Below, in pieces: positions 2,543 through 57,290 of a stretch of 64,000 nucleotides of DNA (positions are counted from its first letter, which is position 1; each line of letters opens with the position of its first letter). This DNA comes from Candidatus Sungiibacteriota bacterium (GTDB lineage Bacteria > Patescibacteriota > Minisyncoccia > Sungbacterales > HO2-52-23): positions 136,358 to 200,357 of the forward strand of contig JACPBG010000001.1 in NCBI GenBank assembly GCA_016180435.1, given 5' to 3'. Position numbers and translations under genes: made by a program. The notes beneath the pieces are model-generated. The model saw nothing but the letters and a program-made list of their open reading frames with translations, was not told the DNA's origin and made no database searches.

Positions 2543-2950
2543 TCGACCACCTTATTTTGATTTGCCTTATTATTTTAAATCACTATTTTAATAGTTATTT
2601 CGTGAATCTTTAGGTAGAAAATAAAAAATTATTAATAAACCACTTCACTATTGTAGCAACATTCGTCCGCCTTCGCTAAAGCTTCGGCAAGACATCGGCC
2701 TATCTTTATCTAAATAATCTCAACATTGTAACAGGCCTCGCAATAAACTATCTCCATCCTTTCCGGCGCGATTACAAAATCTTTTTTACAATTTTGGCAG
2801 TTTCGCGTTTCCATGTATTTTATCAATGGCCGCCATCGGCGGCTACATTATGCAAATCTCACTTTTTTCTTTTAAGGCGCTGAATGCTGTTTTGCGCGGT
2901 AACCGATATTTTTTGCAAAACTTTTAAGTGAGTCGGGGGAGGGACAATTT

Positions 2951-3085
2951 CGGATACAGTAATTTCAGACAATGGGAGGCAAAATTTGCTTGGTTCGTCC
3001 CGCTAAAGGCGGGACGAAAATTTTGCCGACCCTTAGCGAGGTTTTCGCAGGAAAAACCGAGACGTGTCTGAAATTACTGTATCCG
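2951..3085. repeat. Structured repeat family A, copy 1 (candidate ncRNA / REP-like element), 10 nt past the rpoB stop
   Basis: Outer 21-bp closing stem cggatacagtaatttcagaca / tgtctgaaattactgtatccg. Conserved unpaired cores AATGGGAGG and CGACCCTTAGCGA, two internal hairpins. Same architecture at 38201-38328 and 63457-63593, with compensatory stem changes. Confidence 0.65.
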
Positions 3086-3094
3086 AAAAATGTA

Positions 3095-6000
3095 TCACCG
3101 GGATACCACTTTCGCACGAGCGGCATACTGCCGACCCGGTTTTCGCTCCTCACCGGATTTCGGCGCCGGCACCTCTTTCTTTATCACGCTTACATCCAGC
3201 GCCAATCCTTTCAGCTCATTCACTAAAACATTGAACGACGCCGGAATATTCGGATTTTTAATTTTTTCGCCATTTATAATCGCCTCATACGTTGCCGAGC
3301 GCCCCAAAACATCATCCGACTTTATGGTCAATAATTCCTGCAGAGTATGGGCGGCTCCGTATCCTTCCAATGCCCAGACTTCCATTTCACCGAATCTCTG
3401 GCCTCCAAACTGCGCTTTTCCTCCCAAGGGCTGTTGAGTAATCAGGGAATATGGCCCGATGGATCGCATGTGAATTTTATCTTCCACCAAATGTATCAGC
3501 TTCATAATATATATATTGCCCACCGTGATTTTCCGGCCAAAACGCTCGCCGGTTCTTCCGTCATAAAGCGGAACTTTTCCGTCCTCGGGAAGCCCGGCTT
3601 TTTTAAGCTCGGCTTTTATCTCTTCTTCCGATGCGCCGGCCAGAGCCGGGGTCACGGCCCGATATCCCAATCTTTGAGCGGCCCAGCCAAGATGGGTCTC
3701 CAGAATTTGTCCGAGATTCATACGAGACGCGACTCCCAATGGATTTAAAATAACATCCACCGGAGTTCCATCTTCCAAATGCGGCATATCTTCCACCGGC
3801 AGAATTTTTGAAATAACACCCTTGTTGCCGTGCCGTCCGGCCAATTTATCGCCCACCGCAACTTTACGGAGCTGGGCAACTTCAACCTGCACGCGCTTGA
3901 TCACGCCGGCTTCCAGCTTGTCGCCGCGCTCGCGCGCAAATACTTTAATCCCGACTATCCGGCCCCGCTTGCCGTGCGGCAGACGCAATGACGTATCTTT
4001 GACATCGCGCGCTTTTTCCCCGAAAATCGCGCGCAATAATTTTTCTTCGGGTGTTAAATCGGATTCGCCTTTGGGCGAAATTTTTCCTACCAAAATATCG
4101 CCGGATCTTACCTCGGCCCCTATTCTTACAATCCCGTCCTCATCCAAATTTTTCAATTTTTCCTCTCCGACATTCGGAATATCATGAGTCGTGATTTCCG
4201 GACCAAGTTTAGTGTCGCGCACATCCACCGAAAAATCTTCAATATGCATCGAGGTAAACCGGTCATTTTCCAGCAGACGTTCCGAAAGAATTATGGCATC
4301 CTCATAATTCGCTCCGACCCAGGAAATAAACGCCACAAGCACATTCTGTCCAAGCGCCAATTCGCCGTCGCTAATAGAGGAACTATCGGCCAAAATATCG
4401 CCCTTCTTTACTTTATCTCCGCGATGCGCGACCGGGCGCTGTCTAATAACAGTAAAGGCATTGGTTCGCAAAAACGAAACCAGAGGATACACTTTCATTT
4501 TTCCGTTTTTATCTTTCACCCGAATTTCACGCGCGTCGGATGATTCCACAACTCCCGCATCTTCGGCGAGAATCACTCTCCCGGAATGGCGCGCCGCATC
4601 AACTTCAACTCCGGTCCCGACATATGGAGCATCGGCGCGGACACACGGCACCGATTGGCGCTGCATGTTTGAGCCCATCAACGCGCGGTTGGCATCATCA
4701 TGCTCAAGAAAAGGGATCAGGCTGGTTGCGATGCTAATTGCCTGCTGTGGAGATACATCCATATAATGAACGTCTTTTTTCTCGATAACTCCCGGGTTTC
4801 CATGTATGCGCGCCTCAATACGCCCAAGTGTGATATTTCCATCGTGATCAATATCAATGCCTGCGTGCGCGATATTAACTTTTGTCTCGAATGCCGCATC
4901 CAGATATTCAATCTCCCCGGTAATTTTGCCGTCCGTGACTTTCATATACGGAGTTAGTATAAGTCCGAGATCGCTTAAGCGCGCGTAACCGGACATATGC
5001 CCCACCAGTCCGATGTTTGGCCCTTCCGGCGTTTGAATCGGACAGATTCTTCCGTAGTGCGAAGGGTGCACATCGCGCACCTCGAATCCGGCGCGTTCTC
5101 TTTGCAGTCCCCCGGGTCCCATGGCCGAAAGACGGCGCTTGTGCTCAAGCTCGGACAACGGATTGATTTGATCCATAAATTGCGAAAGCTGGGATGAAGT
5201 GAAAAATTCCTTGACAGACGCCATAAAAGGACGCGCATTTACCAACTGAGCCGGAGTCAGTGTAACCGGATCAAATGTTGACATGCGATCCTTGACAATT
5301 CTTGCCATGCGCGCAACCCCGACCCGTAATTTATTCTGCAAAAGTTCGCCGACGCAACGCACCCGGCGATTTCCAAGATGATCAATGTCGTCTACCGCCG
5401 CGTCCGGCGCATTATTCAACCGGATTATTTCACGAAGAATCGCAGTAATTTCCTCGGCTCCAAGCACACGATCCTTGGGATCTTTTACGTTTTTTTTCAA
5501 ATCAAGGCGCTGATTCAATTTAAAACGCCCCACTTCTGCCAAGTCATATCGATCCTGTCCGAACATAGCGCGAATAAGAGAGCGCGCATTATCCACGGCC
5601 GCAAGATCCCCGGGACGTATGCGCCGGTATATTTCAATAAATGCGTCATCCGCATTTTTGGAAGAATCGCGCTCCAGGGTTTTTCGCATGTAAGATATCT
5701 CTCCGGTATCAAAATCCTTGAAAAGATTGAGTATGGCGTCATTATCAGCCACGCCAAAAATGCGAAGCAGGACCGAAGCCGGCACTTTTCGCTTGCGGTC
5801 GATTTTCACCTGAATTGCGCCGTCCGAATCTGTTTCAAATTCAAGCCAGGCCCCGCGATTCGGAATTACTTTAGCGCCGAATAGTTTTCTGCCTCGATTC
5901 AAATAAGCCGTGAAATAAACGCCGGAGGAACGTATAAGCTGGGAAACCACAACTCGCTCTACCCCGTTTACTATAAAGGTTCCGCGCGGAGTCATTAACG

Positions 6001-9665: not shown

Positions 9666-9700
9666 TTGCAATTTTTTTCTAACTATGCTATACTGCGCAT
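9666..9700 (+). promoter_or_regulatory. Near-consensus sigma70-type promoter (TTGCAA-17 bp-TATACT) pointing towards tRNA-Leu
   Basis: TTGCAAtttttttctaactatgcTATACT read directly; about 285-nt leader before the tRNA. Confidence 0.5.
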
Positions 9701-9985
9701 AACGTAATCTTCCGGAGAGTGGCGCAAAGATCACCTTTCTCCAGAGGACTACTCGTCTTTACACCTCGCACCCGCGAGATTTTCTACGAATAATAATCTA
9801 TTCACATTCGGCGATTCTCCGCTGATATGACGCTGATTACAACGCCGATAAAACGCTGATTTTAATTATTGTATTTACGGGCGAGTGGGTCGCATGCGAG
9901 GTTACACAGCATGCAACGGGCGCAAAAGCGCCCCGGGCCGACACGAGCAACCATTTTTTGATCGAGGCCGTGCCGAGAAAATAAA

Positions 9986-10068
9986 GGGCGAGTGGCGGAA
10001 CGGTATACGCGCTGGCTTCAGGAGCCAGTGGGAGCAATCCTGTGGAGGTTCAAATCCTCTCTCGCCCA
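9986..10068 (+). tRNA. tRNA-Leu (anticodon CAG), class II with long variable arm
   Basis: GGGCGAG acceptor pairs with CTCGCCC. Anticodon stem CTGGC/GCCAG with loop TTCAGGA. T-arm GAGGTTCAAATCCTC. Discriminator A. Confidence 0.85.
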
Positions 10069-10149: not shown

Positions 10150-10605
10150 TTGAGTATGGGTAAAGAATTACCAATTGAGAAACAAAATCTTAATATAGAA
10201 TTTAATTCACGGGCTATAAGCAAACGCCTCGTCGAATTGCTTGATAAACTTTGTGGACAAGTGCAATGGGAAGGTGACACACCCTATAAAATCCAAGTAA
10301 TAGATGCTGATGATAAAAAAGCCTACGTATTTGCTATTCGCAAAGGAGAAAATTGGTATACCGTTCAACAACGAGAAAGTAACAATCCGAGTTTAGTTAG
10401 AACGTATACTCTTGAAAAAAAGACTGAAAATTGGGATTATATTGATCCCTATCAAATAAAGTGTGGTGCGTCTTCACTTCCTGCATTGCGGGGCGTTCTA
10501 GATAAATTACAAAAAGTCTGGGAATTGTCTCAACCCAAGAAAATAGATAGCAACATAGATACCGCAAACAATCCGCTACCCCCAAAGGATCCTCATAATA
10601 CTTGA
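10150..10605 (+). CDS. Hypothetical protein
   Basis: 151-aa ORF immediately downstream of tRNA-Leu in an AT-rich stretch; no recognisable motifs. Confidence 0.45.
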   Translation: MSMGKELPIEKQNLNIEFNSRAISKRLVELLDKLCGQVQWEGDTPYKIQVIDADDKKAYVFAIRKGENWYTVQQRESNNPSLVRTYTLEKKTENWDYIDPYQIKCGASSLPALRGVLDKLQKVWELSQPKKIDSNIDTANNPLPPKDPHNT

Positions 10606-10682
10606 ATGACCTCGATTCTGGATCGTCCCACGCCACCTGAAAAAATTTCATCAAATAGAACCCAAAAACCTCAAAACTAATA

Positions 10683-11141
10683 ATGCGTATGAATAAATTG
10701 CTGGATTTTTTAAGGTCTCAGAAACTGCTTGTCGTGGCCTGCCATGATAAAGACGATATTTGGATCGCAAATGTATATTTCGGGGTCGATGATAATTTCA
10801 AAATATATTTTATAAGCCCCGAAAATACAAAGCATAGTCAGTTGATAGCTGAAAATCCTGCAGTTGCTTTTTCAGTTGCATGGTTTAATCCAAATAATCA
10901 CAAAGATCGAAAGGCAATACAGGGTCTTGGAGTTTGCCGGCCCGCAAAAACCGAAGAAGAAATTGCAGAGGGGGTGCGACTGCATAATCACAATTTTCCG
11001 GAATTTAAAAACAAAATTACAGTGGAGTGGATTCACACCAACGAATACAAATCGCGTGTATGGATTATTGAACCTTCGTATATGAAATACTGGGATGACG
11101 AGTTATATGGCGACAAAGAGACCGAGGAATTCAAATTTTAA
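10683..11141 (+). CDS. Pyridoxamine 5'-phosphate oxidase-like FMN-binding split-barrel family protein (general stress protein 26-like)
   Basis: 152 aa; layout and size typical of the PNPOx-like family; weak. Confidence 0.45.
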   Translation: MRMNKLLDFLRSQKLLVVACHDKDDIWIANVYFGVDDNFKIYFISPENTKHSQLIAENPAVAFSVAWFNPNNHKDRKAIQGLGVCRPAKTEEEIAEGVRLHNHNFPEFKNKITVEWIHTNEYKSRVWIIEPSYMKYWDDELYGDKETEEFKF

Positions 11142-13128: not shown

Positions 13129-13152
13129 AAGCCGACGTAACTCGGCTTTTAA
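13129..13152. terminator. Bidirectional intrinsic terminator between convergent rnj and the 256-aa gene
   Basis: Hairpin AGCCGAcgtaacTCGGCT flanked by A/T runs on both sides. Confidence 0.6.
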
Positions 13153-13919
13153 CTTGATAATGCTGTATGAGTCCGCATGGCTGCCAAAAATGTTTTTTCA
13201 AGCTCACGCTTGGCGCCCTCAACGGCATGTTCAAACGCCTTAGACGCCTTTTCCAGAAAAGAATTGCAATGATACTTTCGCATTGCTTCTATGAGTACAG
13301 TAGTATTTTGACGTCTTTTCTCTAATTCCGGTAGTTTTTTTGCTCGATCCTTTAGCAACCTGAATTTCGTGTGCTGCCGCATAAAAATATATACTTTCGT
13401 CCACCAAGGCGATGATTCAAGACCGGACACATCTTTGATTTCTTGCTCCAGCAACCCAGCCCTTGCCTCTAACAAGCAAACAAAATTACGAGACGCCTCA
13501 AGATGTTTTATATACCGTTCATCTTTCTCCAATTCTTCTCGGGCTGCTAAACCATAAGCAAGAAAGGTGTGGACAATAGCTTGAAATGAATTTCCGTTCT
13601 CCACCTGTTTTATCGCATAATCAGCAAATTCATATCCGCGTTTAAATTCAGGCTTTTTAACAATCTCTTCTGCCATCGCTCGACACTTATCACCCATTAT
13701 TTTACCAACGGATTCCAACACCGCCTTATCCTCCGGAATTACCGCATTTCGAATACAGCACCATACGGCATCATTGAACCATCCGAAATCACACAATTCT
13801 TCCAGAGAAATAAATTCCTTGTTGATAAATGGGTTGGGGCATAAATCCGAATCGTCTGAAACTTTCCACACTCTTGTTTCGTGCATCAATTGCGGAGTTG
13901 TACGCATAAAAGTCCTCAA
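13149..13919 (-). CDS. Hypothetical protein (Cys-containing, mostly helical)
   Basis: 256-aa ORF, no recognisable family. Confidence 0.45.
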   Translation of the reverse strand: MRTFMRTTPQLMHETRVWKVSDDSDLCPNPFINKEFISLEELCDFGWFNDAVWCCIRNAVIPEDKAVLESVGKIMGDKCRAMAEEIVKKPEFKRGYEFADYAIKQVENGNSFQAIVHTFLAYGLAAREELEKDERYIKHLEASRNFVCLLEARAGLLEQEIKDVSGLESSPWWTKVYIFMRQHTKFRLLKDRAKKLPELEKRRQNTTVLIEAMRKYHCNSFLEKASKAFEHAVEGAKRELEKTFLAAMRTHTALSS

Positions 13920-13998
13920 ATTTTCAAACGGCTTATATTAAAATATCATCAATGTTCACGGTTTGTCAAACGCCAGCCAAATGCTATAATTAAATAGG

Positions 13999-14370
13999 TC
14001 ACTGCTTTAGCAATGACCTCATGAATTCTTCTTCGCCCGAAAGAGCTTTAGTGAATCTCAGATATTTATCTTCATCGCCGATAATAAAATCCCTGATAAA
14101 ATCGGCATGAAACAAACCAAGAACACTCGTATCTTCTTTTTTATGGCGAACGGATGCGGGCAACTGATCGTTTGTCATCTTCTCGATCTCTCGCACAAAC
14201 CTATCCTCATCGCCTGATACAAATTTATAAATAACAAGCCATACGGCATAACCGAGCGTAACTATTGAAAAAATACTAAGAAACTCTTCGAGCCGGTCCA
14301 ACAAAAAATTTATGGTTGCCATCATTAAAATGACTCTCCGACATTCAATGTACTGTAAATAAATTACCAT
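13999..14370 (-). CDS. Hypothetical small membrane protein (start probably the internal Met)
   Basis: 123-aa ORF with one TM segment. Confidence 0.35.
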   Translation of the reverse strand: MVIYLQYIECRRVILMMATINFLLDRLEEFLSIFSIVTLGYAVWLVIYKFVSGDEDRFVREIEKMTNDQLPASVRHKKEDTSVLGLFHADFIRDFIIGDEDKYLRFTKALSGEEEFMRSLLKQ

Positions 14371-16772: not shown

Positions 16773-16816
16773 AACAGTGACAGAGATAATATAGAGATTA
16801 CATTAAGGTCTATCAA

Positions 16817-16858
16817 TGTTTTTCATTAATTCGCGATCGCGAATTAATGAAAAACATA
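16817..16858. promoter_or_regulatory. Perfect 42-nt palindrome (family F, copy 1) about 45 nt upstream of mpg
   Basis: atgtttttcattaattcgcgatcgcgaattaatgaaaaacat; near-identical copy at 43659-43693. Confidence 0.5.
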
Positions 16859-16897
16859 TAAAAATATTAAATTTCAGATTAATCAGAGTCCGGCTTG

Positions 16898-18094
16898 TTA
16901 AATCTTAGCTAGTGCCAACTTTAAATCCTCAATCAAATCCAGAGGGTCTTCCCTGCCGATTGATAATCGCAAGGTCCCTTGAGTAATTTCAGCCTTGGCG
17001 AGTTCTTCTTTAGTCAATTGCCCGTGCGTAGTGGTGGCCGGATGAATCACAAGTGAACGCGACTCACCAATATTTGGCGCATGCCAAAAAAGGCGCAATG
17101 ATTCCAGCACGCGTTTAGCGTCACGTCTTCCGCCTTTTATTTCAAAGGCCATGAGTCCCCCAAAACCCTGCGGCATGATTTTTTTATTCTCCCGCGCACG
17201 GGGACCGAAAGCGGGATAAAATACACGCCGAACTTTGGGGTGCTTTGAAAGAAACCGGGCAACCCTAAGAGCGTTTTTCGAGTGTTCCATGACCCGGCCA
17301 AAAAGCGACTCGGCATGCGATAGAAAAATCGCGGCATTGTCCGGAGACATGCAAGGCCCCAATGTCCTAAACCAACCAAGTCGCATGTCGTCAATCAATC
17401 TTTTCTTCCCGACAATGCATCCGCCGATCACCTCGCCATCGCCAAAATATTTTGAGAGCGAATGCCACACGATATCTGCGCCCCGTTTCAAAGGCTGCGC
17501 CAGAGCCGGGGTTGCCAAAGTGTTATCTATAACCAATTTTATGCCATGACGATGCGCGATTTTAGCAATCGGACGCGGATCAAACAAATCAATAAGGGGA
17601 TTGGATGGATTTTCCAACGCAAGAAACCGGGTATTAGACCGAATGGCGCGTTCCCACTCGTCAAGATCATATGGATTTTCCAGGAGAGTAACCTCAATAC
17701 CAAGTTTCGGGAGCAATTCACGAAAAAGATGCAACACGCCGCCATAGAGCCGGTTAGACGAGACAATATGTCCGCCGCCATTCGCGAGGTGCAAAGATAT
17801 TATAAGAATCGCGGACATGCCGGACGAAGTAGCAAGTCCGGCCTCTGCTCCTTCCAACACTGCGACCCGTTTTTCCAAACGATCAACAGTGCGATTATTA
17901 ATACGGCTGTAAATAAAACCCCCTTCCTTTCCTTCAAAAAGGCGTTTGGCTCGTTCAAAAGATCCAAGGGGGTAAGCAGTTACGCGGTCAACCACGGGCC
18001 GAAGTTCGTGATCTTTGAAATCACCTCCTCCATGTATTTCAAGGGTTCGCGGCCTCAATTTCCATAGATTTTTTGCTGAAAGTTTTTTCTTCAT
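16898..18094 (-). CDS. PLP-dependent Cys/Met-metabolism enzyme (O-acetylhomoserine sulfhydrylase / cystathionine gamma-synthase family)
   Basis: TLEIHGG N-terminal motif, HSLSKYFGDG with the PLP lysine, overall family fit. The track ORF extends to 18163 across the tRNA region, so the start is placed at the internal Met (MKKKLSAK). Confidence 0.7.
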   Translation of the reverse strand: MKKKLSAKNLWKLRPRTLEIHGGGDFKDHELRPVVDRVTAYPLGSFERAKRLFEGKEGGFIYSRINNRTVDRLEKRVAVLEGAEAGLATSSGMSAILIISLHLANGGGHIVSSNRLYGGVLHLFRELLPKLGIEVTLLENPYDLDEWERAIRSNTRFLALENPSNPLIDLFDPRPIAKIAHRHGIKLVIDNTLATPALAQPLKRGADIVWHSLSKYFGDGEVIGGCIVGKKRLIDDMRLGWFRTLGPCMSPDNAAIFLSHAESLFGRVMEHSKNALRVARFLSKHPKVRRVFYPAFGPRARENKKIMPQGFGGLMAFEIKGGRRDAKRVLESLRLFWHAPNIGESRSLVIHPATTTHGQLTKEELAKAEITQGTLRLSIGREDPLDLIEDLKLALAKI

Positions 18095-18103
18095 ATCGGT
18101 TTT

Positions 18104-18160
18104 AATCGCCCCATGGGGAATTGAACCCCGGTTCCTAGGCCCTGCCCTCCCGCCTTTTAC
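18104..18160 (-). pseudogene. tRNA-like 3' fragment (D-arm remnant fused to T-arm and acceptor 3' strand; no anticodon arm)
   Basis: Minus strand: GGGCCTAGGAACCGGGGTTCAATTCCCCATGGGGCGA; T-loop TTCAATT within a GGGG/CCCC stem. Confidence 0.35.
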
Positions 18161-18164
18161 CAAT

Positions 18165-18239
18165 CAGCCTCACCGGGATTCGAACCCGGGTTACCAGGAT
18201 GAGAACCTGGCGTCCTAGACCAAACTAGACGATGAGGCC
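18165..18239 (-). tRNA. tRNA-Glu (anticodon CTC)
   Basis: Minus strand: GGCCTCATCGTCTAGTTTGGTCTAGGACGCCAGGTTCTCATCCTGGTAACCCGGGTTCGAATCCCGGTGAGGCTG. Anticodon stem CCAGG/CCTGG with loop TTCTCAT. Confidence 0.8.
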
Positions 18240-18270
18240 AAAAAGGTGGGAAGGTGAAAGAACCTAGTGT

Positions 18271-18349
18271 CCTAGGCCACTAGACGATAGGGGCATAAAT
18301 CGCCAGAATTTTGGAAAAATCTGGACTAGACCGGACTAGACGACAGGAG
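18271..18349 (-). repeat. Repeat family G, copy 1: tRNA-Glu-like 5' fragment (acceptor plus D-arm) plus upstream region with further D-arm-like GTCTAGT words
   Basis: Minus strand: GCCCCTATCGTCTAGTGGCCTAGG..; about 85% identical to 34318-34395. Confidence 0.55.
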
Positions 18350-18468
18350 TATAAAAAATGGGTCGGTCGGAGCCGTAACGTGTTATATCTCATCATATAC
18401 CATCATCTTACAATGAATAATGATAAATGAGGAGTTATTTTGCAGGAGGTCTATATATTCACCGGACC

Positions 18469-18995: not shown

Positions 18996-19248
18996 GTTAT
19001 TAAATGCGTGGGTTTACCCCACACTTAATTTTAACTGCCGCTTTCGTTTCCATCCAAGGCAAGATGAACATCTGTTAAGAAATGCGGGCGTATCACACCA
19101 GCTTACTCTGGACGGCACGAAAACGGCCTGCCCGCCATATGCCCGTCTCACAAGTAAAGGCGTTACTCGAAACTTCACTGCAGTACTGAACCCCGTCTTA
19201 ACTTCATATACAGGCGTATGGCAGGCGGGTTAAAATTAAGTGTGGGGC

Positions 19249-22250: not shown

Positions 22251-22267
22251 GATTATTGAATCCTCTC

Positions 22268-22367
22268 TAGACCTACTGCACAAAGATTTTCGTCACGAAA
22301 TTTAAGAATTTCGAGGCAAAATCGCTGAACAAACTTTGCGGCCTATCGCTTAGATAAGCCAAAAAGC
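22268..22367. repeat. MITE-like family B, copy 1 (left arm plus centre); overlaps the 3' end of the thioredoxin-like gene and provides its stop codon
   Basis: tagacctactgcacaaagattttcgtcacgaaatttaagaatttcgaggcaaaatcgctgaacaaactttgcggcctatcgcttagataagccaaaaag is near-identical to the first 100 nt of 53158-53321. Confidence 0.7.
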
Positions 22368-23546: not shown

Positions 23547-26500
23547 CTAATTATGGATAACAGCTTATTTAAATCCTCCGTCAGAATTCTTAATGCCTCG
23601 GCCAAACTTGCCGTCTGCGAAGAATTCGGGGCAAGCAAAATAGACCCTCCTCCGCCTCCTCCACCGCCTCCGCCGCTGCTTGCTACCACGATACTAAACC
23701 CAACGCTGTTGGTGTTTACGCCTCCGACGCATTCTTTTGACGCGTCGCAGAATAATATTAAGTAATCGCCGGCGCCTCCTTCGTTAAAAATTCCCCATCT
23801 GTTCAAGAAAATATATGTATTGGTATTTAACGCGATGGACGCGCTGGCCTGAATCAGCGTCCTTACATTATCTTTATTTCTTACCGCGTAAATATCAACC
23901 GGATAATAAGCTGTTTTGCCGTCAGCCCGGCTGGAAGTTAAAACAAGAGTGTCAGTCGGCGCGTAAGTAGATTTATCCAACTTCATAAAGAAGCCCGGAT
24001 AAGATGACTGTAAGCTCACAATGCTAAACGGCGCGTTGCTCATATCGCTATTGCCAGTTTCAGTTTCAAGGATTAAAATCTTGTAATCGCCAGGACTCAA
24101 TACCCTTTGTAAATTGCCTTGATCACTTGCGACGATTACCTGTCCAACTGGCCAACTAAAAACTTGTTTGTCTGCAGCAATACCTTTAACAGTTGCAATA
24201 TTGCCTTGCCCAAAACCGTTTTTATCCACAACACTTATCGCGTATGTTTTCCCGAAGCTTCCAATCCAAGTAATTGGTTGCGCCGCACCTATCTGAAATT
24301 GCTCTCCCCCATTCGGAGAAAGAACGGTGATGGAGGGTTGGGTCGCGGCCGTGACAATCTTAAAGTATGAATCGCTTCCGTCAAAAAGAGTTAGGCTATT
24401 ATATGAACTCTTTATTTCCAACGTATATGCTCCGTCAGGAATAGAGGATGGAATGGGAATCTCCTCATAACCGTCGTTAATCGTATTATTGATGAGATAA
24501 TATTCAACTCCGTTGTCGTATCCTCTTAAGCGAATTAAATCTAATACTGCCGAGGATGAAACTCCTGAAGTAGTCCACTTTGCGAAAATGATGCCATCTT
24601 TGCCATTTCCTTTATAATACGTCTCCCCTCCATTCGGCGAAAGAACGGTAATGGAGGGTTGGGAGGTTGGCTGATTAACCGTAATCTGGAATTGTTTTGA
24701 AGCTGATTTCCCGCCGGAGGTTACGGTAACTGTAAATGTATAAGTGCCCACGGCTGTCGGCGTTCCAAAAATAACTCCGTTGGTAGAGCAGCTTCCCGCG
24801 CTATTGCAGGAAACAGGAGAAGTTGAAATCGTTAAACCCGGCGGCAAACCGATTGCGGTCCATTTAGCATCTGATCCGATCCCTGAAGCAGTAATGTTAG
24901 GTTGAGGATAAGCAACTCCCACAGTGCCGGTTGGCAAATCGGCGGCATTAATAATAATTATAGGAACTGGCGTTGGAGCCATAATACTAAACGGAGAATT
25001 TGATGAACTTACTGACGGCGCTGTTTGTCTGACGATTTGAATGTAGTAGGACGTTTCCCCAGGGGCGAGCGGCCCAAGTTTTCCGTCATATAACGTACCG
25101 ACGTTCCAAACAAATGATGTACCATAAACCTGGTTTGCAATAATTCCGTACGCGCCTCCATCTTTACGCACTGCAAAAACTGTATAGTATACATTGCTCG
25201 CATACGCAGAATCCGTCCATTGAATGGTCTGATTTGTTCCTGATTGCCACGCGTGTCCATTCGGCACAGTAACGGTGATGGAGGGTTGAGTATAAAATTT
25301 CTCCAGATAATTTTCCGTCACCCAGCCGTCCGCTCCGGAATCAAAATCTATATACCACCACCAATAACCATTTACATAAATAGGATAGGTAGCGAGGTTA
25401 AGAGGTGAAGGAGAAATAGTGCCAAGAGCGCCAACGGCTTGGGTGCCGCGGATTGGACTGGCAAAATTTGACAAAGACGGAGTGCCCCGCACATTAACTA
25501 TAGCGGTGGTTTTTACCCTATCGCCGATTTGAAATCTTGCAGAAGGATCTATAGTAACCGTCATGCTTGTTTTGGCGATAAGGCCCTGGTTGTCGGTCAC
25601 ATAGAAAACCGGGGTATATACACGGGAGTTAGCGTAAGAATGAGTAAATGTCGCGGTTTGTTGAACCGGAGCCAATGAAAGCGGGACCGGAGAAGGAGAA
25701 GGCATTGGTTGAACCGCTTCATCTCCCCAAACAACCGAATACGAAAGCGGCCCATTTTCCGGATCATACGCACTAACACTCCATGTGCCGGTTTCTCCGA
25801 CTTTCAGCGCAGTCGGACCTTTGACTCCGGAAATAACCGGTGCTTGATTATTAATCGGAGGCGGTGTTGGAAATGGAGTGGGGAACGGCGGAGGAACTTC
25901 AAACTGCGAAAGATTAATTGTCGCAAAAGTCACTCTGCCCGCTCCTATAGAAACATCGGTTTTATTTTTATCATATCCTTTCGCGCTTGCAACAATCGTA
26001 TATTCTCCCGCGCGTAAATTCTCAAAAAACGCAACTCCGCGTTCCGTGGTCTGCGTTCCGATCAGCGTGCCGGACGCGTCATACAAATCAACCGTTGCGT
26101 GATAAATTGTCCCGCAAGGCGGAAGAATTATTGAGGGTCCTCCGTCTGAATGTCCTCCGCCCGAGCCGCCACTCTGAATTTGTTGTAAGGAAGATGACGA
26201 TAACACGCACATTATATTCATACCATTCACACTGACCTGTAAGGATCCGTAATTTTGCGCGGGCCTAGAAAGATCGCGTATAATCAACGCTTTAATGTTC
26301 TGACTACTGTTAGTGTAGGAGCCGTAAATATTCAAAATATCCCCAACCGCTATCTCGGAAAGCGCCATGGAAGTCCTGTCTCTTTGCAAAATGGCTGTTT
26401 GTGAAGTTACTTCAATTAAATATTTCCTGATAGCCGGATAATAATCGGGACTAGCTCCCATGGCTCCCGCGCCTGGTTGTGGCTGCTCTTGAATTTCCAG

Positions 26501-30512: not shown

Positions 30513-30520
30513 TCATTTAT

Positions 30521-30634
30521 TAGACCTACTACGCAAAGATTAATCTACTGCAATTTAATAATTTCGGCCAAAATCGCTTCAAAACTTTTTGGCTTATCTA
30601 AGCGATAGGCCGCAAAGTTTGTTCAGCGATTTTG
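30521..30634. repeat. MITE-like family B, copy 2 (inverted; right arm plus centre), supplies the obg stop codon
   Basis: Reverse complement matches 53207-53321. Preceded by ttattag, like the full copy. Confidence 0.7.
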
Positions 30635-34190: not shown

Positions 34191-34304
34191 TTACATTATA
34201 ACACGAATTCCGTGTATTCTAAATCCGCCCGGAAGCGCAAATTCTCCCTCGCCATGCGAACCTTTACGCTTACCGAGTAAAATAGTGCCGTCTTTCAAAA
34301 TCAT
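34191..34304 (-). pseudogene. Truncated Nudix-hydrolase N-terminal fragment (37 codons), fused behind a tRNA 5' fragment
   Basis: MILKDGTILLGKRKGSHGEGEFALPGGF then stop, before any Nudix box. AGGAGG RBS and ATG lie inside repeat family G, copy 2. Confidence 0.4.
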
Positions 34305-34317
34305 TACACCAACTCCT

Positions 34318-34395
34318 CCTAGGCCACTAGACGACGGGGGCATAAATCGCCAGAATTTTGAAGAAATCGGGAATAGACCGAAATAGACGACAGGA
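34318..34395 (-). repeat. Repeat family G, copy 2 (tRNA-Glu-like 5' fragment plus upstream region)
   Basis: Minus strand: GCCCCCGTCGTCTAGTGGCCTAGGAGG; about 85% identical to 18271-18349. Confidence 0.55.
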
Positions 34396-34580
34396 ACACA
34401 AAATGTTTGATTTCTTATCTTACTACAATTCTTACTACGATATACTAAAAATAAAGCGCTTTCACAAGGAAACTTAATCACGGAATGGCTTTTTTTATTT
34501 GACAAAGCCAAAAAATAGATGTATTAAATCTGTATTAAGAGGGTTGGCTCTTTTAAAACCCAGTATGGAGGAGGCTCAAA

Positions 34581-38200: not shown

Positions 38201-38328
38201 GTATCACTATTTCAAAACAATGGGAGGACAAGTTTGCATGGTTCGCCGTCTGCAGACGGCGAAAACTTGTCCGACCCTTAGCGAGTTTTTGCGCTGGCAA
38301 AAACGAGCGTGTTTTGAAATAGTGATAC
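38201..38328. repeat. Structured repeat family A, copy 2, 7 nt past the ftsI stop
   Basis: Closing stem gtatcactatttcaaaaca / tgttttgaaatagtgatac covaries relative to copies 1 and 3. Cores AATGGGAGG and CGACCCTTAGCGA are conserved. Confidence 0.65.
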
Positions 38329-38334
38329 CGAACC

Positions 38335-43532: not shown

Positions 43533-43658
43533 AAGATCAAAACTATACCATGCATATCATGATCAAGTTTAAATTACAATATAGACCCTATCACGTCGCC
43601 ATCGAACTGGATTATATATTTTAGCAGGCCGAAAAAATTCTAAGTTAGATTTATTAAT

Positions 43659-43693
43659 GTTTTTCACTAATTCGCGATCGCGAATTAGTGAAA
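43659..43693. promoter_or_regulatory. Perfect palindrome (family F, copy 2) upstream of the saccharopine-DH-family gene
   Basis: tttttcactaattcgcgatcgcgaattagtgaaaa; same TTCGCGATCGCGAA core as 16817-16858. Confidence 0.5.
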
Positions 43694-43913
43694 ATTAATA
43701 AAAAATGGGTCCCCATGGGCAAGCCCCGTCACCAAAATTTTGACAGTTTCTGTGCCGCCCCGAATAAGCTGGCGGGATATACTCTGTATTTCTTGATATA
43801 TGTTCATCTCTCTTGGGATGGAAACGAAAGCGGCAGTCAAAATTTGGTGCGGGGCAAGCCCATGATCTTTTGGAGCATGGATAAAAATCCGCCTAAAGGC
43901 GACTACAATGAAG

Positions 43914-53128: not shown

Positions 53129-53156
53129 AACGCGGATTAATCGCGTTTATTTTTTA
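53127..53156 (+). terminator. Intrinsic terminator after the zinc-ribbon ORF
   Basis: aaaaCGCGGattaaTCGCGtttt then tttttt. Confidence 0.65.
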
Positions 53157-53157
53157 T

Positions 53158-53321
53158 TAGACCTACTGCACAAAGATTTTCGTCACGAAATTTCAGAATT
53201 TCGAGGCAAAATCGCTGAATAAACTTTGCGGCCTATCGGCCAAGATAAGCCAAAAAGTTTTGAAGCGATTTTGGCCGAAATTCTGAAATTGCAGTAGATT
53301 AATCTTTGCGCAGTAGGTCTA
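53158..53321. repeat. MITE-like family B, full-length palindromic copy (about 164 bp, 22-bp terminal inverted repeats)
   Basis: tagacctactgcacaaagatt ... aatctttgcgcagtaggtcta; the terminal cta provides the TAG stop of the minus-strand ORF 53319-53573. Confidence 0.7.
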
Positions 53322-53573
53322 TTCAACTCCTCCGACTTTTTCCACAATAGCGCGGTTAATTTCATCTTCAGTGGCGCCTTCGGGCAAACCGAGTTCTTTG
53401 ATCAATTCTTCGCGCTCCTTTCTTTCTTTTCGCTCTTGCAATTTTTCAAACGGCAAAACTTTGACTTTTTGTCCGGGCTTTTGCCCGGATTCCGGTAGCG
53501 GCTTTTCTTTCCGCTGGCGGTATTCATCAAGGTTCACGACGTTTTCGAAATTATTTTGAGGAGTTTTTTCCAT
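53319..53573 (-). CDS. Hypothetical small charged protein
   Basis: 84-aa Lys/Glu-rich ORF. Confidence 0.35.
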   Translation of the reverse strand: MEKTPQNNFENVVNLDEYRQRKEKPLPESGQKPGQKVKVLPFEKLQERKERKEREELIKELGLPEGATEDEINRAIVEKVGGVE

Positions 53574-53813
53574 AAATTTTTGCGATATAAATATAGATAA
53601 AATCTTGATCTACTTATACAACCAAGCTTGAACGCACTTTATCATAAATTTTTGAGCTAAGATAGTCCCGCCCCGCGAGCAGGACGGGCATTCCGTCGCT
53701 CTTCCCAACAAGGCATCAAAACTCATCCCAAAAAACACGCAAAAAAAATAAATTTGCGGGTGGACGCGTGCGGAATTTTCTTTTTAATTAGGGATCAATT
53801 TAATACAAACAAA

Positions 53814-54005
53814 TTATCCAAATACAGTGTAAAAGACGGCGATAATTACTATTGCAATAAGAATAATCCATTTCCAGCCACGAGATGACACTTGGGACAT
53901 ATTTTTAGCCTGATACTCAACCCGTTCTGCTGTGCGTTGCATGCTATCAAGCGTGCTCATGGTGCGGTCTACTTTCTTAAAAACATCAAATATTTTATCA
54001 AACAT
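53814..54005 (-). CDS. Small tail-anchored membrane protein
   Basis: 63 aa with C-terminal TM. Confidence 0.3.
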   Translation of the reverse strand: MFDKIFDVFKKVDRTMSTLDSMQRTAERVEYQAKNMSQVSSRGWKWIILIAIVIIAVFYTVFG

Positions 54006-54031
54006 TTTATTTATTTAAGTCAGGTAATTAG

Positions 54032-54667
54032 TCAGAAACGTAAATTATTATTAATAAGTTTTGCAAAAGCAATTAATTGTTCACGAGTAAATTTTTCATC
54101 AGCCATTAAAGTTACGAAGAAGCGACCAGAGCTATCAGCAAACATCAAGGATCTCTCAAGATTTTTTTCTTTATCCATATAAAAGTAAAATCCTTTCTTA
54201 CCGACATCAATATTGTCTATGCTAGCGCCGCCCAATTTACCCAAAGCCTCATATGAATCGAGCATCTTAAACGCTGAGTCTGCATAAATTACGTTGGCGC
54301 TTATATTAATATTATTATTGTTTCCATATTGACAAAAAATAATTTTTTCAGTTTGAAACGCATCCATCATGGGGTCGGAAGCCAAATTTGTATTCACTAA
54401 AAATAGTTTGTTTACATCTTTTGCCGAAGCTATTTGTGAACAACTAAATTTAAAACTACTGGAACCAATTTTGTCATTCGACGGTACTTGAGTCGGCGAG
54501 GCAGAAGGCGTTGTTTTTTGTGTAAACCCTTGCGGGCCAGACGGCGTTGATCTGCTTATAGTGTTGATGGCTCTATTGTAAAAATAAAATGCGCCTCCTA
54601 TTACAATTACTGCTGCCGCAACGATCACTAGCAATGAAATATATCCGCGATTATTTGATGTTTTCAT
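54032..54667 (-). CDS. Hypothetical membrane-anchored extracellular protein
   Basis: 211 aa, N-terminal TM, Ser/Thr/Pro-rich linker; low GC. Confidence 0.4.
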   Translation of the reverse strand: MKTSNNRGYISLLVIVAAAVIVIGGAFYFYNRAINTISRSTPSGPQGFTQKTTPSASPTQVPSNDKIGSSSFKFSCSQIASAKDVNKLFLVNTNLASDPMMDAFQTEKIIFCQYGNNNNINISANVIYADSAFKMLDSYEALGKLGGASIDNIDVGKKGFYFYMDKEKNLERSLMFADSSGRFFVTLMADEKFTREQLIAFAKLINNNLRF

Positions 54668-56430: not shown

Positions 56431-56947
56431 TAGAATTAGAAGCTGACCCTTGAATTATCGGATCATAATATTTTCCGACACCCTGTTGCATTATTAAGGC
56501 AAACGCATAAATTCCAACAATTCCGCCGATGGCGTTTATCAGCCAGAATACTATGCCGCCAAAAACACCCAATCCGGACAGGCCGCCCAGAATTCCAAAA
56601 ATAATCCATATCGCAAGACTTGGATAGAAACATAACTGAAAAATATTTGTTATATTGAACGCCCAGCCGAATAAAATCCTGGCAAGCTTAAGCCAGAAAT
56701 CAAAAAACATAGAAAAAATCACTCCGCCTATGGCGCCGCCAATTACTGACAAAACAATATTATAAATGAAATTTCCTAAACCAAAATAATTTGACTTAAT
56801 TCCAAAGGCTATCAGATCGTCTATTGCTCCTCCCCCGGGGATAGTAAAAAATCTAACACTAACAAAAGTAGCAATCCCAATAATTACTCCGTAAACGGCC
56901 GATCCTATGGCGGACCAATATATTGTGTTTTTTGTGCGTTCATCCAT
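56423..56947 (-). CDS. Hypothetical polytopic membrane protein
   Basis: 174 aa Gly/Ile-rich with 4-5 TM helices; first gene of the operon (8-nt overlap with the next gene). Confidence 0.45.
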   Translation of the reverse strand: MDERTKNTIYWSAIGSAVYGVIIGIATFVSVRFFTIPGGGAIDDLIAFGIKSNYFGLGNFIYNIVLSVIGGAIGGVIFSMFFDFWLKLARILFGWAFNITNIFQLCFYPSLAIWIIFGILGGLSGLGVFGGIVFWLINAIGGIVGIYAFALIMQQGVGKYYDPIIQGSASNSNG

Positions 56948-57180: not shown

Positions 57181-57252
57181 TCCTCCCACCTGGAATCGAA
57201 CCAGGACCAACGGCTTAAAAGGCCGCTGCTCTACCAATTGAGCTATGGGAGG
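57181..57252 (-). tRNA. tRNA-Lys (anticodon TTT)
   Basis: Minus strand: CCTCCCATAGCTCAATTGGTAGAGCAGCGGCCTTTTAAGCCGTTGGTCCTGGTTCGATTCCAGGTGGGAGGA. Anticodon loop CTTTTAA. C1-G72 pair. Confidence 0.8.
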
Positions 57253-57267
57253 ATAAATTTTAGTACG

Positions 57268-57290
57268 GGACCAATTGAGCTATGGGAGGG
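57268..57290 (-). pseudogene. Duplicated tRNA-Lys 5' fragment (acceptor plus D-arm, about 23 nt) 15 nt upstream of tRNA-Lys
   Basis: Minus strand: CCCTCCCATAGCTCAATTGGTCCC. Confidence 0.5.

What the first reader, a model, noticed from the sequence alone, without database searches (positions are those of the whole stretch)
9880..9995. Systematic duplication of tRNA 5' ends near their parent genes (Leu, Lys, Glu) and a portable tRNA-5'-fragment repeat fused to a Nudix gene stub
GGGCGAGTGG, the first 10 nt of tRNA-Leu, recurs at 9880-9889, about 100 nt upstream of the gene. A 23-nt copy of the tRNA-Lys acceptor plus D-arm lies 15 nt upstream of tRNA-Lys (57268-57290). A Glu-like 5' fragment lies upstream of tRNA-Glu (18271-18296). 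The latter belongs to an 80-nt repeat (family G), whose second copy (34318-34395) provides the RBS and ATG for a 37-codon Nudix N-terminal stub. An intact but different Nudix gene sits next to tRNA-Lys. Recurrent 5'-end (not the usual 3'-end) tRNA duplications suggest repeated integration or excision at tRNA 5' regions, or template switching during tRNA-primed events.
Basis: seen in the sequence. Interest (0 to 1): 0.6.

Follow-up and report, generated by a model that had tools for sequence, protein, structure and literature searches.

The report
tRNA genes nested inside older copies
The tRNA "5' fragments" are leftovers of older tRNA genes that were split when a newer copy of the same tRNA, flanked by short inverted repeats, landed inside them. 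This gene-within-a-gene layout recurs in related candidate-phyla bacteria, and I found no description of it in the papers I could search.

Summary
The window comes from a Candidatus Sungbacteria (Parcubacteria/CPR) genome.

**What held up**
- The tRNA-Lys fragment is real. It is an exact 20-mer of tRNA nt 1-20, lying 17 nt upstream of the gene.
- The tRNA-Glu fragments are real, and there are two of them.
- The Leu 10-mer is borderline.

- The matching 3' half of the Glu fragment lies just downstream of the working tRNA-Glu.
- So the functional tRNA-Glu(CTC), flanked by a 14-bp inverted repeat, sits inside the anticodon loop of an older tRNA-Glu(CTC). A still older 5' relic lies further upstream.
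- The same design occurs at the sister lineage's tRNA-Glu and at a Wolfebacteria tRNA-Pro(CGG), which has perfect 13-bp flanking repeats.
- The flanks resemble the terminal repeats of a small MITE-like element ("X") found elsewhere in the window. The 17-nt Lys spacer belongs to the same family.

**What did not hold up**
- "Family G" is not a portable promoter. Copy 2 marks the ancestral tRNA-Glu site upstream of the glycosyltransferase gene, where the sister lineage still keeps its tRNA-Glu.
- The Nudix stub is an internally truncated pseudogene with an internal ATG.
- No integrase was found in the window.

**Mechanism**
Insertion of repeat-bounded tRNA cassettes is inferred, not shown.

The parts
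18165..18239 (-). Functional (innermost) tRNA-Glu(CTC).
   Evidence: ARAGORN and Rfam (58.8 bits).
18259..18294 (-). 5' half (nt 1-35) of an older tRNA-Glu (the 'outer' gene, type B). It ends at TTCT in the anticodon loop.
   Evidence: Local alignment to the tRNA gives p<0.001. It is orthologous to the outer 5' fragment in sister locus L049.
18240..18258 (-). Left flank of the inner tRNA. It holds the inverted-repeat arm CCTTCCCACCTTTT (18241-18254).
   Evidence: Pairs with 18145-18158. The flank inverted-repeat score gives p=0.019 against a random-position null.
18140..18164 (-). Right flank of the inner tRNA. It holds the inverted-repeat arm AAAAGGCGGGAGGG (18145-18158).
18107..18139 (-). 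3' half (anticodon-stem 3' strand, variable region, T arm, acceptor) of the outer tRNA-Glu.
   Evidence: Local alignment to tRNA nt 42-73 gives p<0.001. 27 of 33 nt are identical to the sister's outer 3' half. Joined in silico to the 5' half, ARAGORN at a lowered detection threshold (-ps95) calls it tRNA-Glu(CTC).
18304..18350 (-). Oldest relic ('fragment A'): the 5' part of a third tRNA-Glu type. It is 23/25 identical to the sister lineage's functional tRNA-Glu, with a distorted anticodon arm.
18270..18356 (+). Family G copy 1. It consists of fragment A, a spacer, and nt 1-25 of the outer 5' half.
   Evidence: the repeat finder family D4.
34317..34403 (+). Family G copy 2. This is the relic left at the ancestral tRNA-Glu site upstream of the GT5 gene. 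It breaks at tRNA nt 25/26.
   Evidence: 87% identical to copy 1. The sister lineage has its tRNA-Glu nest at the equivalent place. The adjacent block ATATACTAAAAATA... is orthologous.
34212..34316 (-). Nudix pseudogene stub covering residues 10-44 of a 140-aa Nudix.
   Evidence: BLASTP gives 77% identity, E=1e-18. tblastx is.
57181..57252 (-). tRNA-Lys(TTT).
   Evidence: It is inverted relative to the Nudix gene when compared with the sister lineage.
57270..57289 (-). Exact copy of tRNA-Lys nt 1-20, the relic of a split older copy.
57253..57269 (-). 17-nt spacer CCCGTACTAAAATTTAT. It belongs to the same terminal-repeat family as the left flank of the sister's tRNA-Glu cassette and the ends of the X elements.
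   Evidence: The 14-mer CCCGYACTAAAATT is found only here and at the sister cassette.
9879..9888 (+). GGGCGAGTGG, matching tRNA-Leu nt 1-10. Status unresolved.
9986..10068 (+). tRNA-Leu(CAG).
43725..43862 (-). X element: about 140 nt, MITE-like, with ends GCCCCGCACCAAATTTTGAC and GTCAAAATTTTGGTGACGGGGC. It is inserted in the loop of the hairpin GGGC-TT-GCCC.
19016..19246 (+). X element, longer variant, with perfect 19-bp terminal inverted repeats CCCCACACTTAATTTTAAC.

Best explanation
**Proposal**
The tRNA fragments are relics of older copies of the same tRNA genes. A unit made of a complete tRNA gene bounded by short inverted repeats became inserted into a single-stranded loop of the resident gene for the same tRNA. 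Those bounding repeats belong to the same family as the ends of a small MITE-like element, here called X. The insertion split the old gene into halves that now flank the new one.

**tRNA-Glu**
- This happened at least twice, in the anticodon loop after nt 34/35.
- The result, in order, is: oldest 5' relic, outer 5' half, repeat arm, working gene, repeat arm, outer 3' half.

**tRNA-Lys**
- Only the first 20 nt of the old gene and the left repeat arm survive.
- The rest was probably lost in the inversion and 3.6-kb insertion that distinguish this lineage from its sister.

**Family G**
- The second copy is what stayed at the original tRNA-Glu site upstream of the glycosyltransferase (GT5) gene.
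- A rearrangement placed about 16 kb between that site and the working nest, which now lies at the junction with the PLP-enzyme block.

**Shown versus inferred**
- Shown: the anatomy, its recurrence in other lineages, and the shared repeat family.
- Inferred: that the inner unit arrived by insertion, and that the outer halves are non-functional.
- Unknown: the enzyme responsible.
- Unresolved: the Leu 10-mer.
For: 1. **Both halves are present and meet at one point.** The 5' half (nt 1-35) lies upstream and the 3' half (nt ~39-73) downstream of the working tRNA-Glu, each with p<0.001 (sequence).

2. **The design recurs.**
   - Sister-lineage tRNA-Glu (L049): the outer halves abut exactly at TTC|TCAG. 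The flanking repeat is 20 bp.
   - Wolfebacteria tRNA-Pro(CGG) (L019:703-878): the flanking repeat CCCCCACACTCAT/ATGAGTGTGGGGG is a perfect 13 bp, and the outer acceptor strands are complementary.
   - Sister tRNA-Leu: a probable, degraded case.

3. **Flanking inverted repeats are specific to the nests.** They are significant only for the nested tRNAs (p=0.003-0.019) and not for the five other tRNAs tested.

4. **The outer genes are the same tRNA as the inner ones.** When the inner unit is removed in silico, ARAGORN at a lowered detection threshold (-ps95) calls tRNA-Glu(CTC) and tRNA-Pro(CGG), the same anticodons as the inner genes.

5. **The outer genes carry defects.**
   - Window: broken terminal acceptor pairs, explained by a 1-nt loss in a G run.
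   - Sister: a 150-nt X element at nt 25/26.
   - Wolfebacteria: a shortened anticodon stem, and a strain polymorphism that breaks the T stem.

6. **The flanks share a consensus with X.**
   - The consensus is about CCCCRCACYAAAATTT, shared with the terminal repeats of X elements dispersed in the window (43725-43862, 19016-19246) and in the sister locus.

7. **X sits in the loops of short hairpins.** Examples are GGGC-TT-GCCC and CCTAG-GACA-CTAGG. An anticodon stem-loop is this kind of target.

8. **The structure is real.** Independent assemblies carry the identical sequence.

9. **All the loci lie at synteny breaks** relative to the sister lineage.
Against: - No transposase or recombinase was found in the window, and none has been linked to the X ends.
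- Target-site duplications are unclear. TT appears at one X copy, but nothing consistent appears at the nests.
- The repeat arms of the window's own Glu cassette and of the sister Leu cassette fit the family consensus only loosely.
- Why a cassette should land in the gene for the same tRNA is unexplained. Survivorship or homology could each account for it.
- The outer acceptor stem shows one compensatory change between the window and the sister (T5:A68 to C5:G68). This means either independent insertions after the lineages split, or continued selection on the outer gene, which would favour the intron-like rival.
- The sample is small. Ten distinct Parcubacteria tRNA loci were examined, with three clear nests.
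- The Lys case lacks a right repeat arm and a 3' relic.
Confidence: 0.55

Rival explanations
1. **Local duplication and decay, with no mobile unit.** The tRNA gene was tandemly duplicated or triplicated together with its flanks. Deletions then removed the 3' half of the upstream copy and the 5' half of the downstream copy, or only one of these for Lys.
For: - A tandem duplication that straddles a gene's 5' end yields a 5' fragment, a leader and an intact gene without any special machinery.
- Each Glu unit carries a similar A/T-rich run just before nt 1.
- These genomes are full of repeats that could drive duplication and deletion.
Against: - Two independent deletions would have to end at the same nucleotide of the anticodon loop, and this would have to happen in three separate cases: Glu in the window, Glu in the sister, and Pro in Wolfebacteria.
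- Flanks of tandem copies would be direct repeats. The flanks of the inner genes are inverted repeats.
- The 17 nt before tRNA-Lys do not recur before the fragment (5 of 17 matches, read from the sequence).
- Outer and inner genes differ by about 25%, and differ in their acceptor stems.
Confidence: 0.15
2. **The first reader's model.** Integrase-mediated integration and excision of genomic islands at tRNA 5' regions left the 5' fragments as attachment-site remnants.
For: - The Glu breakpoint is in the anticodon loop, a classical integrase crossover site (established knowledge, from memory: Williams 2002).
- All three tRNAs sit next to lineage-specific DNA: 10150-11141, the 3.6 kb at 53574-57180, and the rearranged Glu junction.
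- Published work attributes prokaryotic tRNA gene fragments to integrating elements (PMC9897764).
Against: - No integrase was found in 64 kb.
- The fragments lie 13-17 nt from the intact gene, with no island between them.
- The 16 kb between the G copies is housekeeping DNA.
- Integration that restores the gene leaves one half at the far end of the island. It does not leave both halves hugging a complete inner gene.
- The junctions share no overlap sequence of 6-8 bp.
Confidence: 0.1
3. **A functional nested gene.** The outer tRNA is transcribed with the inner tRNA inside an intron-like insert. The long helix formed by the inverted repeats is cleaved, the inner tRNA is released, and the outer halves are joined.
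For: - Predicted folds stack the outer anticodon stem, the repeat helix and the inner acceptor stem into one rod.
- The sister and Wolfebacteria outer genes form valid cloverleaves once the insert is removed.
- One compensatory pair change occurs in the outer acceptor stem between the window and the sister.
- Disrupted tRNA genes of this general sort are normal in archaea (PMC4390854, PMC4033280).
Against: - Outer and inner genes have the same anticodon, so the outer gene adds nothing.
- Every outer copy carries a defect.
- The minimum-free-energy folds show no bulge-helix-bulge motif at the junctions, and Rfam finds no group I intron core.
- No bacterial enzyme set is known to join halves cut in an anticodon loop (established knowledge).
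Confidence: 0.08

Closest known systems
tRNA gene fragments left by integrating genetic elements (att-site remnants; PMC9897764; Williams 2002, from memory)
   Same: - Partial tRNA copies lie beside an intact gene.
- The Glu breakpoint is in the anticodon loop.
- The loci are hotspots of lineage-specific change.
   Different: - Known cases leave a displaced 3' fragment at the far end of an island that carries an integrase.
- Here both halves of the old gene directly flank a complete new gene of about 75 nt plus 15-35-nt inverted-repeat arms.
- There is no island and no integrase.
Disrupted tRNA genes of archaea and some algae: intron-containing, split and permuted genes (PMC4390854, PMC4033280, PMC3978253)
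   Same: - A tRNA coding sequence is interrupted in a loop.
- The ends of the insert pair into a helix.
- One outer gene (sister Glu) has two inserts, at nt 25/26 and nt 34/35.
   Different: - This is a bacterium.
- The insert is itself a complete tRNA with the same anticodon.
- No bulge-helix-bulge motif is present.
- The outer copies look degenerate.
Bacterial MITEs and palindromic repeat elements, such as Correia elements and REPINs (from memory)
   Same: - The units are short, non-coding, dispersed and bounded by terminal inverted repeats, so transcripts would fold into long hairpins.
- The X elements fit this description.
   Different: - I know of no described bacterial MITE family that carries a tRNA gene.
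- A preference for inserting in the loops of short hairpins, including tRNA loops, is inferred here from only a few sites.
- No transposase has been identified.
Nested insertions of site-specific elements, such as twintrons and IS-in-IS (from memory)
   Same: The Russian-doll layering is what repeated insertion into one intact target would produce.
   Different: Here the inserted unit brings a fresh copy of its own target, the tRNA loop. Each event therefore recreates the site.

Membership tests
Integrase-type genomic island at a tRNA gene | A tyrosine or serine integrase gene next to the tRNA or the repeat. | tested here: not met
   Pfam scans of 53 of the 58 ORFs of 80 aa or more gave no integrase, recombinase or transposase hit.
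Integrase-type genomic island at a tRNA gene | A direct repeat of the tRNA 3' part at the distal end of a block of foreign genes. | tested here: not met
   - The fragments are 5' parts, or both halves, lying within 13-25 nt of the intact gene.
- The 16 kb between the G copies encodes Obg, BipA, AhpC and DsbD.
MITE / non-autonomous element with terminal inverted repeats (X family) | Terminal inverted repeats. | tested here: met
   - X copies have 19-20-bp terminal repeats.
- The nested tRNAs have 13-20-bp flanking repeats, p=0.003-0.019.
MITE / non-autonomous element with terminal inverted repeats (X family) | Several dispersed copies with related sequence, in different contexts. | tested here: met
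   - Two X copies in the window and one inside the sister's outer tRNA-Glu align over ends and interior.
- The ends of the tRNA cassettes fit the same consensus to varying degrees.
MITE / non-autonomous element with terminal inverted repeats (X family) | Target-site duplication. | tested here: inconclusive
   TT flanks the X copy at 43725-43862. No consistent duplication appears at the tRNA nests.
MITE / non-autonomous element with terminal inverted repeats (X family) | A cognate transposase somewhere in the genome, and polymorphic filled and empty sites. | not testable with these tools
   - Only 64 kb of the source genome is available.
- The source genome is not in the genome collection.
- The pattern scan of metagenomes found nothing.
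Intron-containing tRNA gene | A bulge-helix-bulge motif or a group I catalytic core at the insert. | tested here: not met
   - The minimum-free-energy folds give a near-continuous helix without 3-nt bulges.
- Rfam finds no intron family at E up to 1.
- ARAGORN in intron mode does not call the outer genes.
Intron-containing tRNA gene | Exons that form an intact tRNA under selection. | tested here: inconclusive
   - The in-silico spliced outer genes are called as tRNAs.
- One compensatory change is seen.
- Every outer copy nonetheless has a defect.
Intron-containing tRNA gene | A spliced RNA product. | not testable with these tools
   No transcript data are available.

The most novel reading that the evidence does not exclude
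Parcubacteria harbour a mobile unit not yet described. It is a cassette of about 110-140 nt, made of a complete tRNA gene between X-family terminal inverted repeats. It inserts into the anticodon loop (or another loop) of the resident gene for the same tRNA. The insertion disables the old gene, supplies a replacement, and brings a fresh copy of its own target. Repeated rounds then build Russian-doll loci and drive turnover of tRNA genes, perhaps preferentially of the C34 isoacceptors (Glu-CTC, Pro-CGG, Leu-CAG).
Probability: 0.3. Interest if true: 0.85.

Novelty: new variant of a known kind. Interest (0 to 1): 0.68.

Why it matters
- tRNA fragments beside tRNA genes are normally read as footprints of integrases and islands. 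Here they record something else: complete tRNA genes sitting inside the loops of older copies of themselves, bounded by repeats of a small dispersed element, in at least three lineages and two or three tRNA identities.
- If this is a mobile cassette, it is a very compact way to replace essential RNA genes, and an element that carries its own target site.
- If instead the outer genes are expressed, it would be a bacterial counterpart of the disrupted tRNA genes of archaea.
- Either way it affects tRNA annotation in candidate-phyla genomes, because halves are missed or miscalled, and it explains why assemblies break at these loci.
- It also gives a concrete, testable handle on genome rearrangement in these repeat-rich small genomes.

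Tried and rejected
- **Genome-collection scan.** A 20-mer from family G returned only four chance hits in unrelated phyla. The source genome is not among the species representatives, so the scan was wasted.
- **Metagenome scan.** A 22-mer from family G found nothing.
- **Possible tRNA-like patch at 24780-24820.** This was suggested by short matches to tRNA-Lys and tRNA-Ala. It lies inside a 1240-aa surface-protein ORF and was dismissed as chance.
- **The 16 kb between the G copies as an island bounded by att-like repeats.** Rejected because the content is housekeeping.
- **Simple tandem duplication for Lys.** Rejected because the 17-nt leader is not repeated upstream of the fragment.
- **ARAGORN with introns allowed.** It did not call the outer genes. 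At relaxed thresholds it gave only spurious calls elsewhere.
- **Rfam at permissive thresholds.** It found nothing for the X element and no partial tRNA hits for the relics.
- **Search for a 3' relic of tRNA-Lys.** None was found within 300 nt downstream of the gene or anywhere in the window.
- **Four literature searches.** No description of tRNA-in-tRNA nests in these bacteria turned up. The library is incomplete, so this is not proof of novelty.
- **An exact-protein look-up for the Nudix with the long start** failed.
Full report
**Source and gene map**

The PLP-dependent enzyme at 16901-18094 (- strand) is identical to a protein of a Candidatus Sungbacteria MAG on a 364,844-bp NCBI contig. 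The Nudix and DUF5676 proteins match the same record. The window holds four tRNA genes:
- Leu-CAG, 9986-10068 (+)
- Glu-CTC, 18165-18239 (-)
- Lys-TTT, 57181-57252 (-)
- Ala-TGC, 62238-62308 (-)

Pfam scans of 53 of the 58 ORFs of 80 aa or more found ordinary housekeeping and envelope genes. They found no integrase, recombinase or transposase. The window is rich in short dispersed direct and inverted repeats.

**Checking the observation**

*Lys.*
- The sequence CCTCCCATAGCTCAATTGGT (tRNA nt 1-20) recurs exactly at 57270-57289 (- strand). That is 17 nt upstream of the gene and 3 nt after the Nudix stop codon.
- blastn-short gives E=3e-6.
- A null built from every position in the window gives 1.6e-5 for a prefix match this long within 300 nt upstream.

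*Glu.*
- Upstream lie two tRNA-Glu-like 5' pieces, each preceded by a short A/T-rich run like the real gene.
- The nearer piece (18259-18294) matches tRNA nt 1-35 and stops in the anticodon loop (p<0.001).

*Family G.* The repeat is real: 87 nt, 87% identity, at 18270-18356 and 34317-34403.

*Leu.*
- The 10-mer is at 9879-9888.
- Matches of 10 nt or more to tRNA-Leu occur eight other times in the window, close to expectation. The unanchored test gives p=0.036.
- A match anchored at nt 1 within 300 nt upstream has p of about 1.4e-3 per gene.
- The 10-mer is absent from the syntenic locus of the sister lineage, where only the first ~110 nt after the upstream gene align.
- I leave it unresolved.

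*Ala.* tRNA-Ala has nothing comparable.

The sequence CCTAGGAACCGGGGTTCAATTCCCCATGGGGCG lies at 18107-18139, 25 nt downstream of the working tRNA-Glu. It comprises the anticodon-stem 3' strand, variable region, T arm and acceptor strand of a tRNA-Glu (p<0.001). Its anticodon-stem strand (CCTAG) pairs with that of the upstream fragment (CTAGG), not with the working gene's.

The locus on the - strand therefore reads:
1. outer 5' half (nt 1-35)
2. 19-nt flank
3. complete tRNA-Glu(CTC)
4. 25-nt flank
5. outer 3' half
6. 12 nt later, the PLP gene's ATG

The two flanks contain an imperfect 14-bp inverted repeat, CCTTCCCACCTTTT / AAAAGGCGGGAGGG (p=0.019 against random positions). The predicted fold stacks the outer anticodon stem, this helix and the inner acceptor stem. 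With the inner unit removed in silico, ARAGORN at a lowered detection threshold (-ps95) calls the outer sequence tRNA-Glu(CTC).

The outer gene is damaged. Its two terminal acceptor pairs are broken, which is explained by loss of one G from a G run.

Independent Logan assemblies from several samples are identical to the window through this region. Their contigs end exactly at the family G boundary, as expected at a two-copy repeat.

**Relatives**

A sister lineage has 85-89% protein identity and comes mostly from aquifer metagenomes. It supplied syntenic loci for all the sites.

*Sister tRNA-Glu.* Its tRNA-Glu(CTC) lies about 870 nt upstream of the GT5 glycosyltransferase gene. This is the position occupied in the window by family G copy 2, and the adjacent block ATATACTAAAAATA...ACAAGGAAA is orthologous. 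That locus is also a nest:
- The outer 5' part is GCCCTCATCGTCTAGTGGCCTAGGAC. A ~150-nt insert (X) follows it, and the outer sequence then resumes with ACTAGGTTC.
- The left repeat arm is GCCCCGCACTAAAATTCAAT.
- An intact inner tRNA-Glu follows.
- The right repeat arm is ATTGAATTTTTAGTGCGGGG.
- TCAG-CCTAGGAACCGGGGTTCAATTCCCCGTGAGGGCA completes the outer gene.
- The outer halves abut exactly (TTC|TCAG) and their acceptor strands are perfectly complementary.
- Further downstream lies a 3' relic of a third type (TCATCCGTGTAACTCGGGCTC, p<0.001).
- In the window, the far-upstream fragment A (18304-18350) is 23/25 identical to the sister's inner gene.
- Together the two genomes therefore show three layers.

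*Wolfebacteria tRNA-Pro.* In a Wolfebacteria genome (GCA_001793855.1 and two metagenome assemblies), tRNA-Pro(CGG) shows the same design:
- Upstream lies TGGGTTGTAGTATACCGGTAGTACGCGCGTTCG.
- The arm CCCCCACACTCAT, the inner gene, and the arm ATGAGTGTGGGGG follow.
- GGGTGCGTGAAGACCGGGTTCGTTTCCCGGCAGCCCGA completes the outer gene.
- Both halves give p<0.001, and the outer acceptor strands are complementary.
- The one strain polymorphism in this 200-nt stretch breaks the outer T stem.

*Sister tRNA-Leu.* It is flanked by a 13-bp repeat (ATCCCGTTAGAAAT/ATTTCTAACGGGA). An anticodon-arm-like piece (GCGTTGGTTCA) precedes it, and a T-arm/acceptor-like relic follows 137 nt downstream (p=0.006). This is a probable degraded nest.

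One is probable, one (Lys in the window) has a 5' relic only, and one (Leu in the window) is doubtful.

**The flanks belong to a dispersed repeat family**

- The insert X in the sister's outer tRNA-Glu has terminal inverted repeats: CCCACACCAAAATTTCGAC ... GTCGAAATTTGGTGACGGGG.
- It aligns, ends and interior, with two elements in the window at 43725-43862 (-) and 19016-19246 (+).
- Rfam has no match.
- The ends of the tRNA cassettes align with these ends to give a consensus near CCCCRCACYAAAATTT. The fit is close for the sister Glu cassette and the Wolfebacteria Pro cassette. It is looser for the window's Glu cassette and the sister Leu cassette.
- The 17-nt spacer between the Lys fragment and tRNA-Lys, CCCGTACTAAAATTTAT, shares the 14-mer CCCGYACTAAAATT with the sister's Glu cassette arm. 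That 14-mer occurs nowhere else in the window or in the 52 loci.
- The Lys case is therefore the same phenomenon, with the break after nt 20 in the D loop, even though no right arm or 3' relic remains.
- The X copies sit in the loops of short hairpins:
  - GGGC-TT-GCCC at 43.8 kb
  - GTGGG-TTTA-CCTAC at 19.1 kb
  - CCTAG-GACA-CTAGG, the nt 25/26 site in the sister's outer tRNA-Glu
- The breakpoints seen here fall in single-stranded parts of the cloverleaf: nt 20/21, nt 25/26 (also where family G copy 2 ends) and nt 34/35. This reading rests on direct inspection of a few sites.

**Rearrangements**

*Glu.*
- In the sister lineage, the PLP gene is directly preceded by a histidine-phosphatase gene.
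- There, DUF5676 is followed by a 330-aa gene and a P-type ATPase.
- There, tRNA-Glu sits by GT5.
- In the window, DUF5676, the Glu nest and PLP are contiguous. GT5 retains only fragment A plus nt 1-25 of the outer gene (family G copy 2).
- That relic is joined to 35 codons of a Nudix gene, residues 10-44 of a 140-aa homologue.
- So copy 2 is the residue of the ancestral site, not a transposed promoter. The stub's ATG and GGAG are Nudix-derived or junction sequence lying outside the repeat.

*Lys.*
- The sister has the Nudix gene and tRNA-Lys convergent and no fragment.
- The window has them co-oriented, with the fragment exactly at the junction.
- The window also has an extra 3.6 kb (53574-57180) encoding an RCC1-repeat protein and two unknown proteins. 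A 42-nt inverted repeat (arms at 53759-53800 and 57058-57099) brackets most of it.

*Leu.*
- The upstream side is syntenic.
- The genes downstream (10150-11141) have no counterpart in the sister, which has three other genes there.

**Interpretation**

The anatomy is firm. The halves abut precisely, the flanks are inverted rather than direct repeats, the layers are nested, and the design recurs in different lineages and tRNA identities. These features all favour insertion of a complete, repeat-bounded tRNA unit into a loop of the resident cognate gene. They argue against decay of tandem arrays.

Layering is what repeated insertion into the only remaining intact target would produce. Inner and outer genes share the anticodon, and every outer copy is damaged, so relics are more likely than a working nested gene.

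Against this:
- No enzyme is identified.
- Target-site duplications are unclear.
- Cognate targeting is unexplained.
- One compensatory change in the outer acceptor stem between the two lineages leaves room for continued function, or for independent insertions.

All three clear or probable nests involve C34 isoacceptors whose loops start TTC. This may reflect target preference or the dispensability of these genes. With this sample size it is only a lead.

**Literature**

Searches found reviews of disrupted archaeal tRNA genes (PMC4390854, PMC4033280, PMC3978253). They also found a paper attributing prokaryotic tRNA fragments to integrating elements or CRISPR activity (PMC9897764). Nothing found describes tRNA genes nested in cognate tRNA genes in these bacteria. 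The library is partial, so novelty is provisional.

Noticed in passing
window 43725-43862 (-) and 19016-19246 (+); L049 ~3170-3318 (-): The X family: elements of about 140-230 nt with 19-20-bp terminal inverted repeats (CCCCRCACYAAAATTT...) and a conserved interior. They sit in the loops of short hairpins. Rfam has no match. They could be a MITE or a small structured RNA gene.
   Followed up: partly
window 9700-9745; L037 17555-17600 (-): Just after the nucleotidyltransferase gene there is a stretch conserved with the sister lineage. It has promoter-like TTGCA...TATGCTATACTG, followed by the hairpin GTAATCTTCCGGAGAGTGGC...CCTTTCTCCAGAGGA. The rest of the spacer does not align. This may be a small RNA or a leader upstream of tRNA-Leu.
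   Followed up: no
window 2948-3088, 38205-38331, 63461-63596: Three copies of a ~140-nt intergenic element (families D2/D7). One copy has a perfect 24-bp inverted repeat, TTTCGGATACAGTAATTTCAGACA / TGTCTGAAATTACTGTATCCGAAA. This is a repeat family distinct from X.
   Followed up: no
window 22263-22366, 30516-30634, 53153-53326: Another dispersed repeat family (D3/D5/I2/I6), up to 98-100% identical between copies in both orientations. This suggests recent spread or gene conversion.
   Followed up: no
window 16803-16870 and 43647-43706: Two ~60-nt palindromes centred on TTCGCGATCGCGAA (D11/I17/I22), lying in intergenic DNA.
   Followed up: no
window 53574-57180 (repeat arms at 53759-53800 and 57058-57099): A lineage-specific 3.6-kb segment encoding an RCC1-repeat/DUF2341 protein (whose coding sequence carries seven 114-159-nt repeats) and two unknown proteins. 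A 42-nt inverted repeat brackets most of it, and it is absent from the sister lineage between tRNA-Lys and the 84-aa gene.
   Followed up: partly
L037 16950-17290 (-): Downstream of the sister's tRNA-Leu lie a perfect 11-bp hairpin (GCTGAAGCCAA/TTGGCTTCAGC) and a T-arm plus acceptor-like sequence (GTGGGTTAAAATCCCACCCGCGGCA) that ARAGORN does not call. The motif GAAATTTGSTGACGGGGCAGGC precedes both the Leu and the Glu nests in that genome.
   Followed up: partly
L049 3640-3900 and window 43850-43870, 43715-43735: The short palindrome GGGCTTGCCC, often extended to ...CCCCGTTAGAGAGAAAC, recurs many times in intergenic DNA of both lineages. It looks like a REP-like repeat and may provide the hairpin targets for X.
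   Followed up: no
window 10150-11141 and 13149-14370: Four ORFs (151, 152, 256 and 123 aa) have no counterpart in the sister lineage's otherwise syntenic block, which carries AAA_18, HAD-hydrolase and unknown genes instead.
   Followed up: partly
window 18165-18239 versus L049 3059-3133: The functional tRNA-Glu(CTC) genes of the two lineages are nearly identical from nt 8 to nt 65. Their acceptor stems are entirely different (GGCCTCA versus GCTCCTG). The window's acceptor stem resembles the sister's outer (relic) gene, which suggests chimeras formed by recombination among the layers.
   Followed up: no
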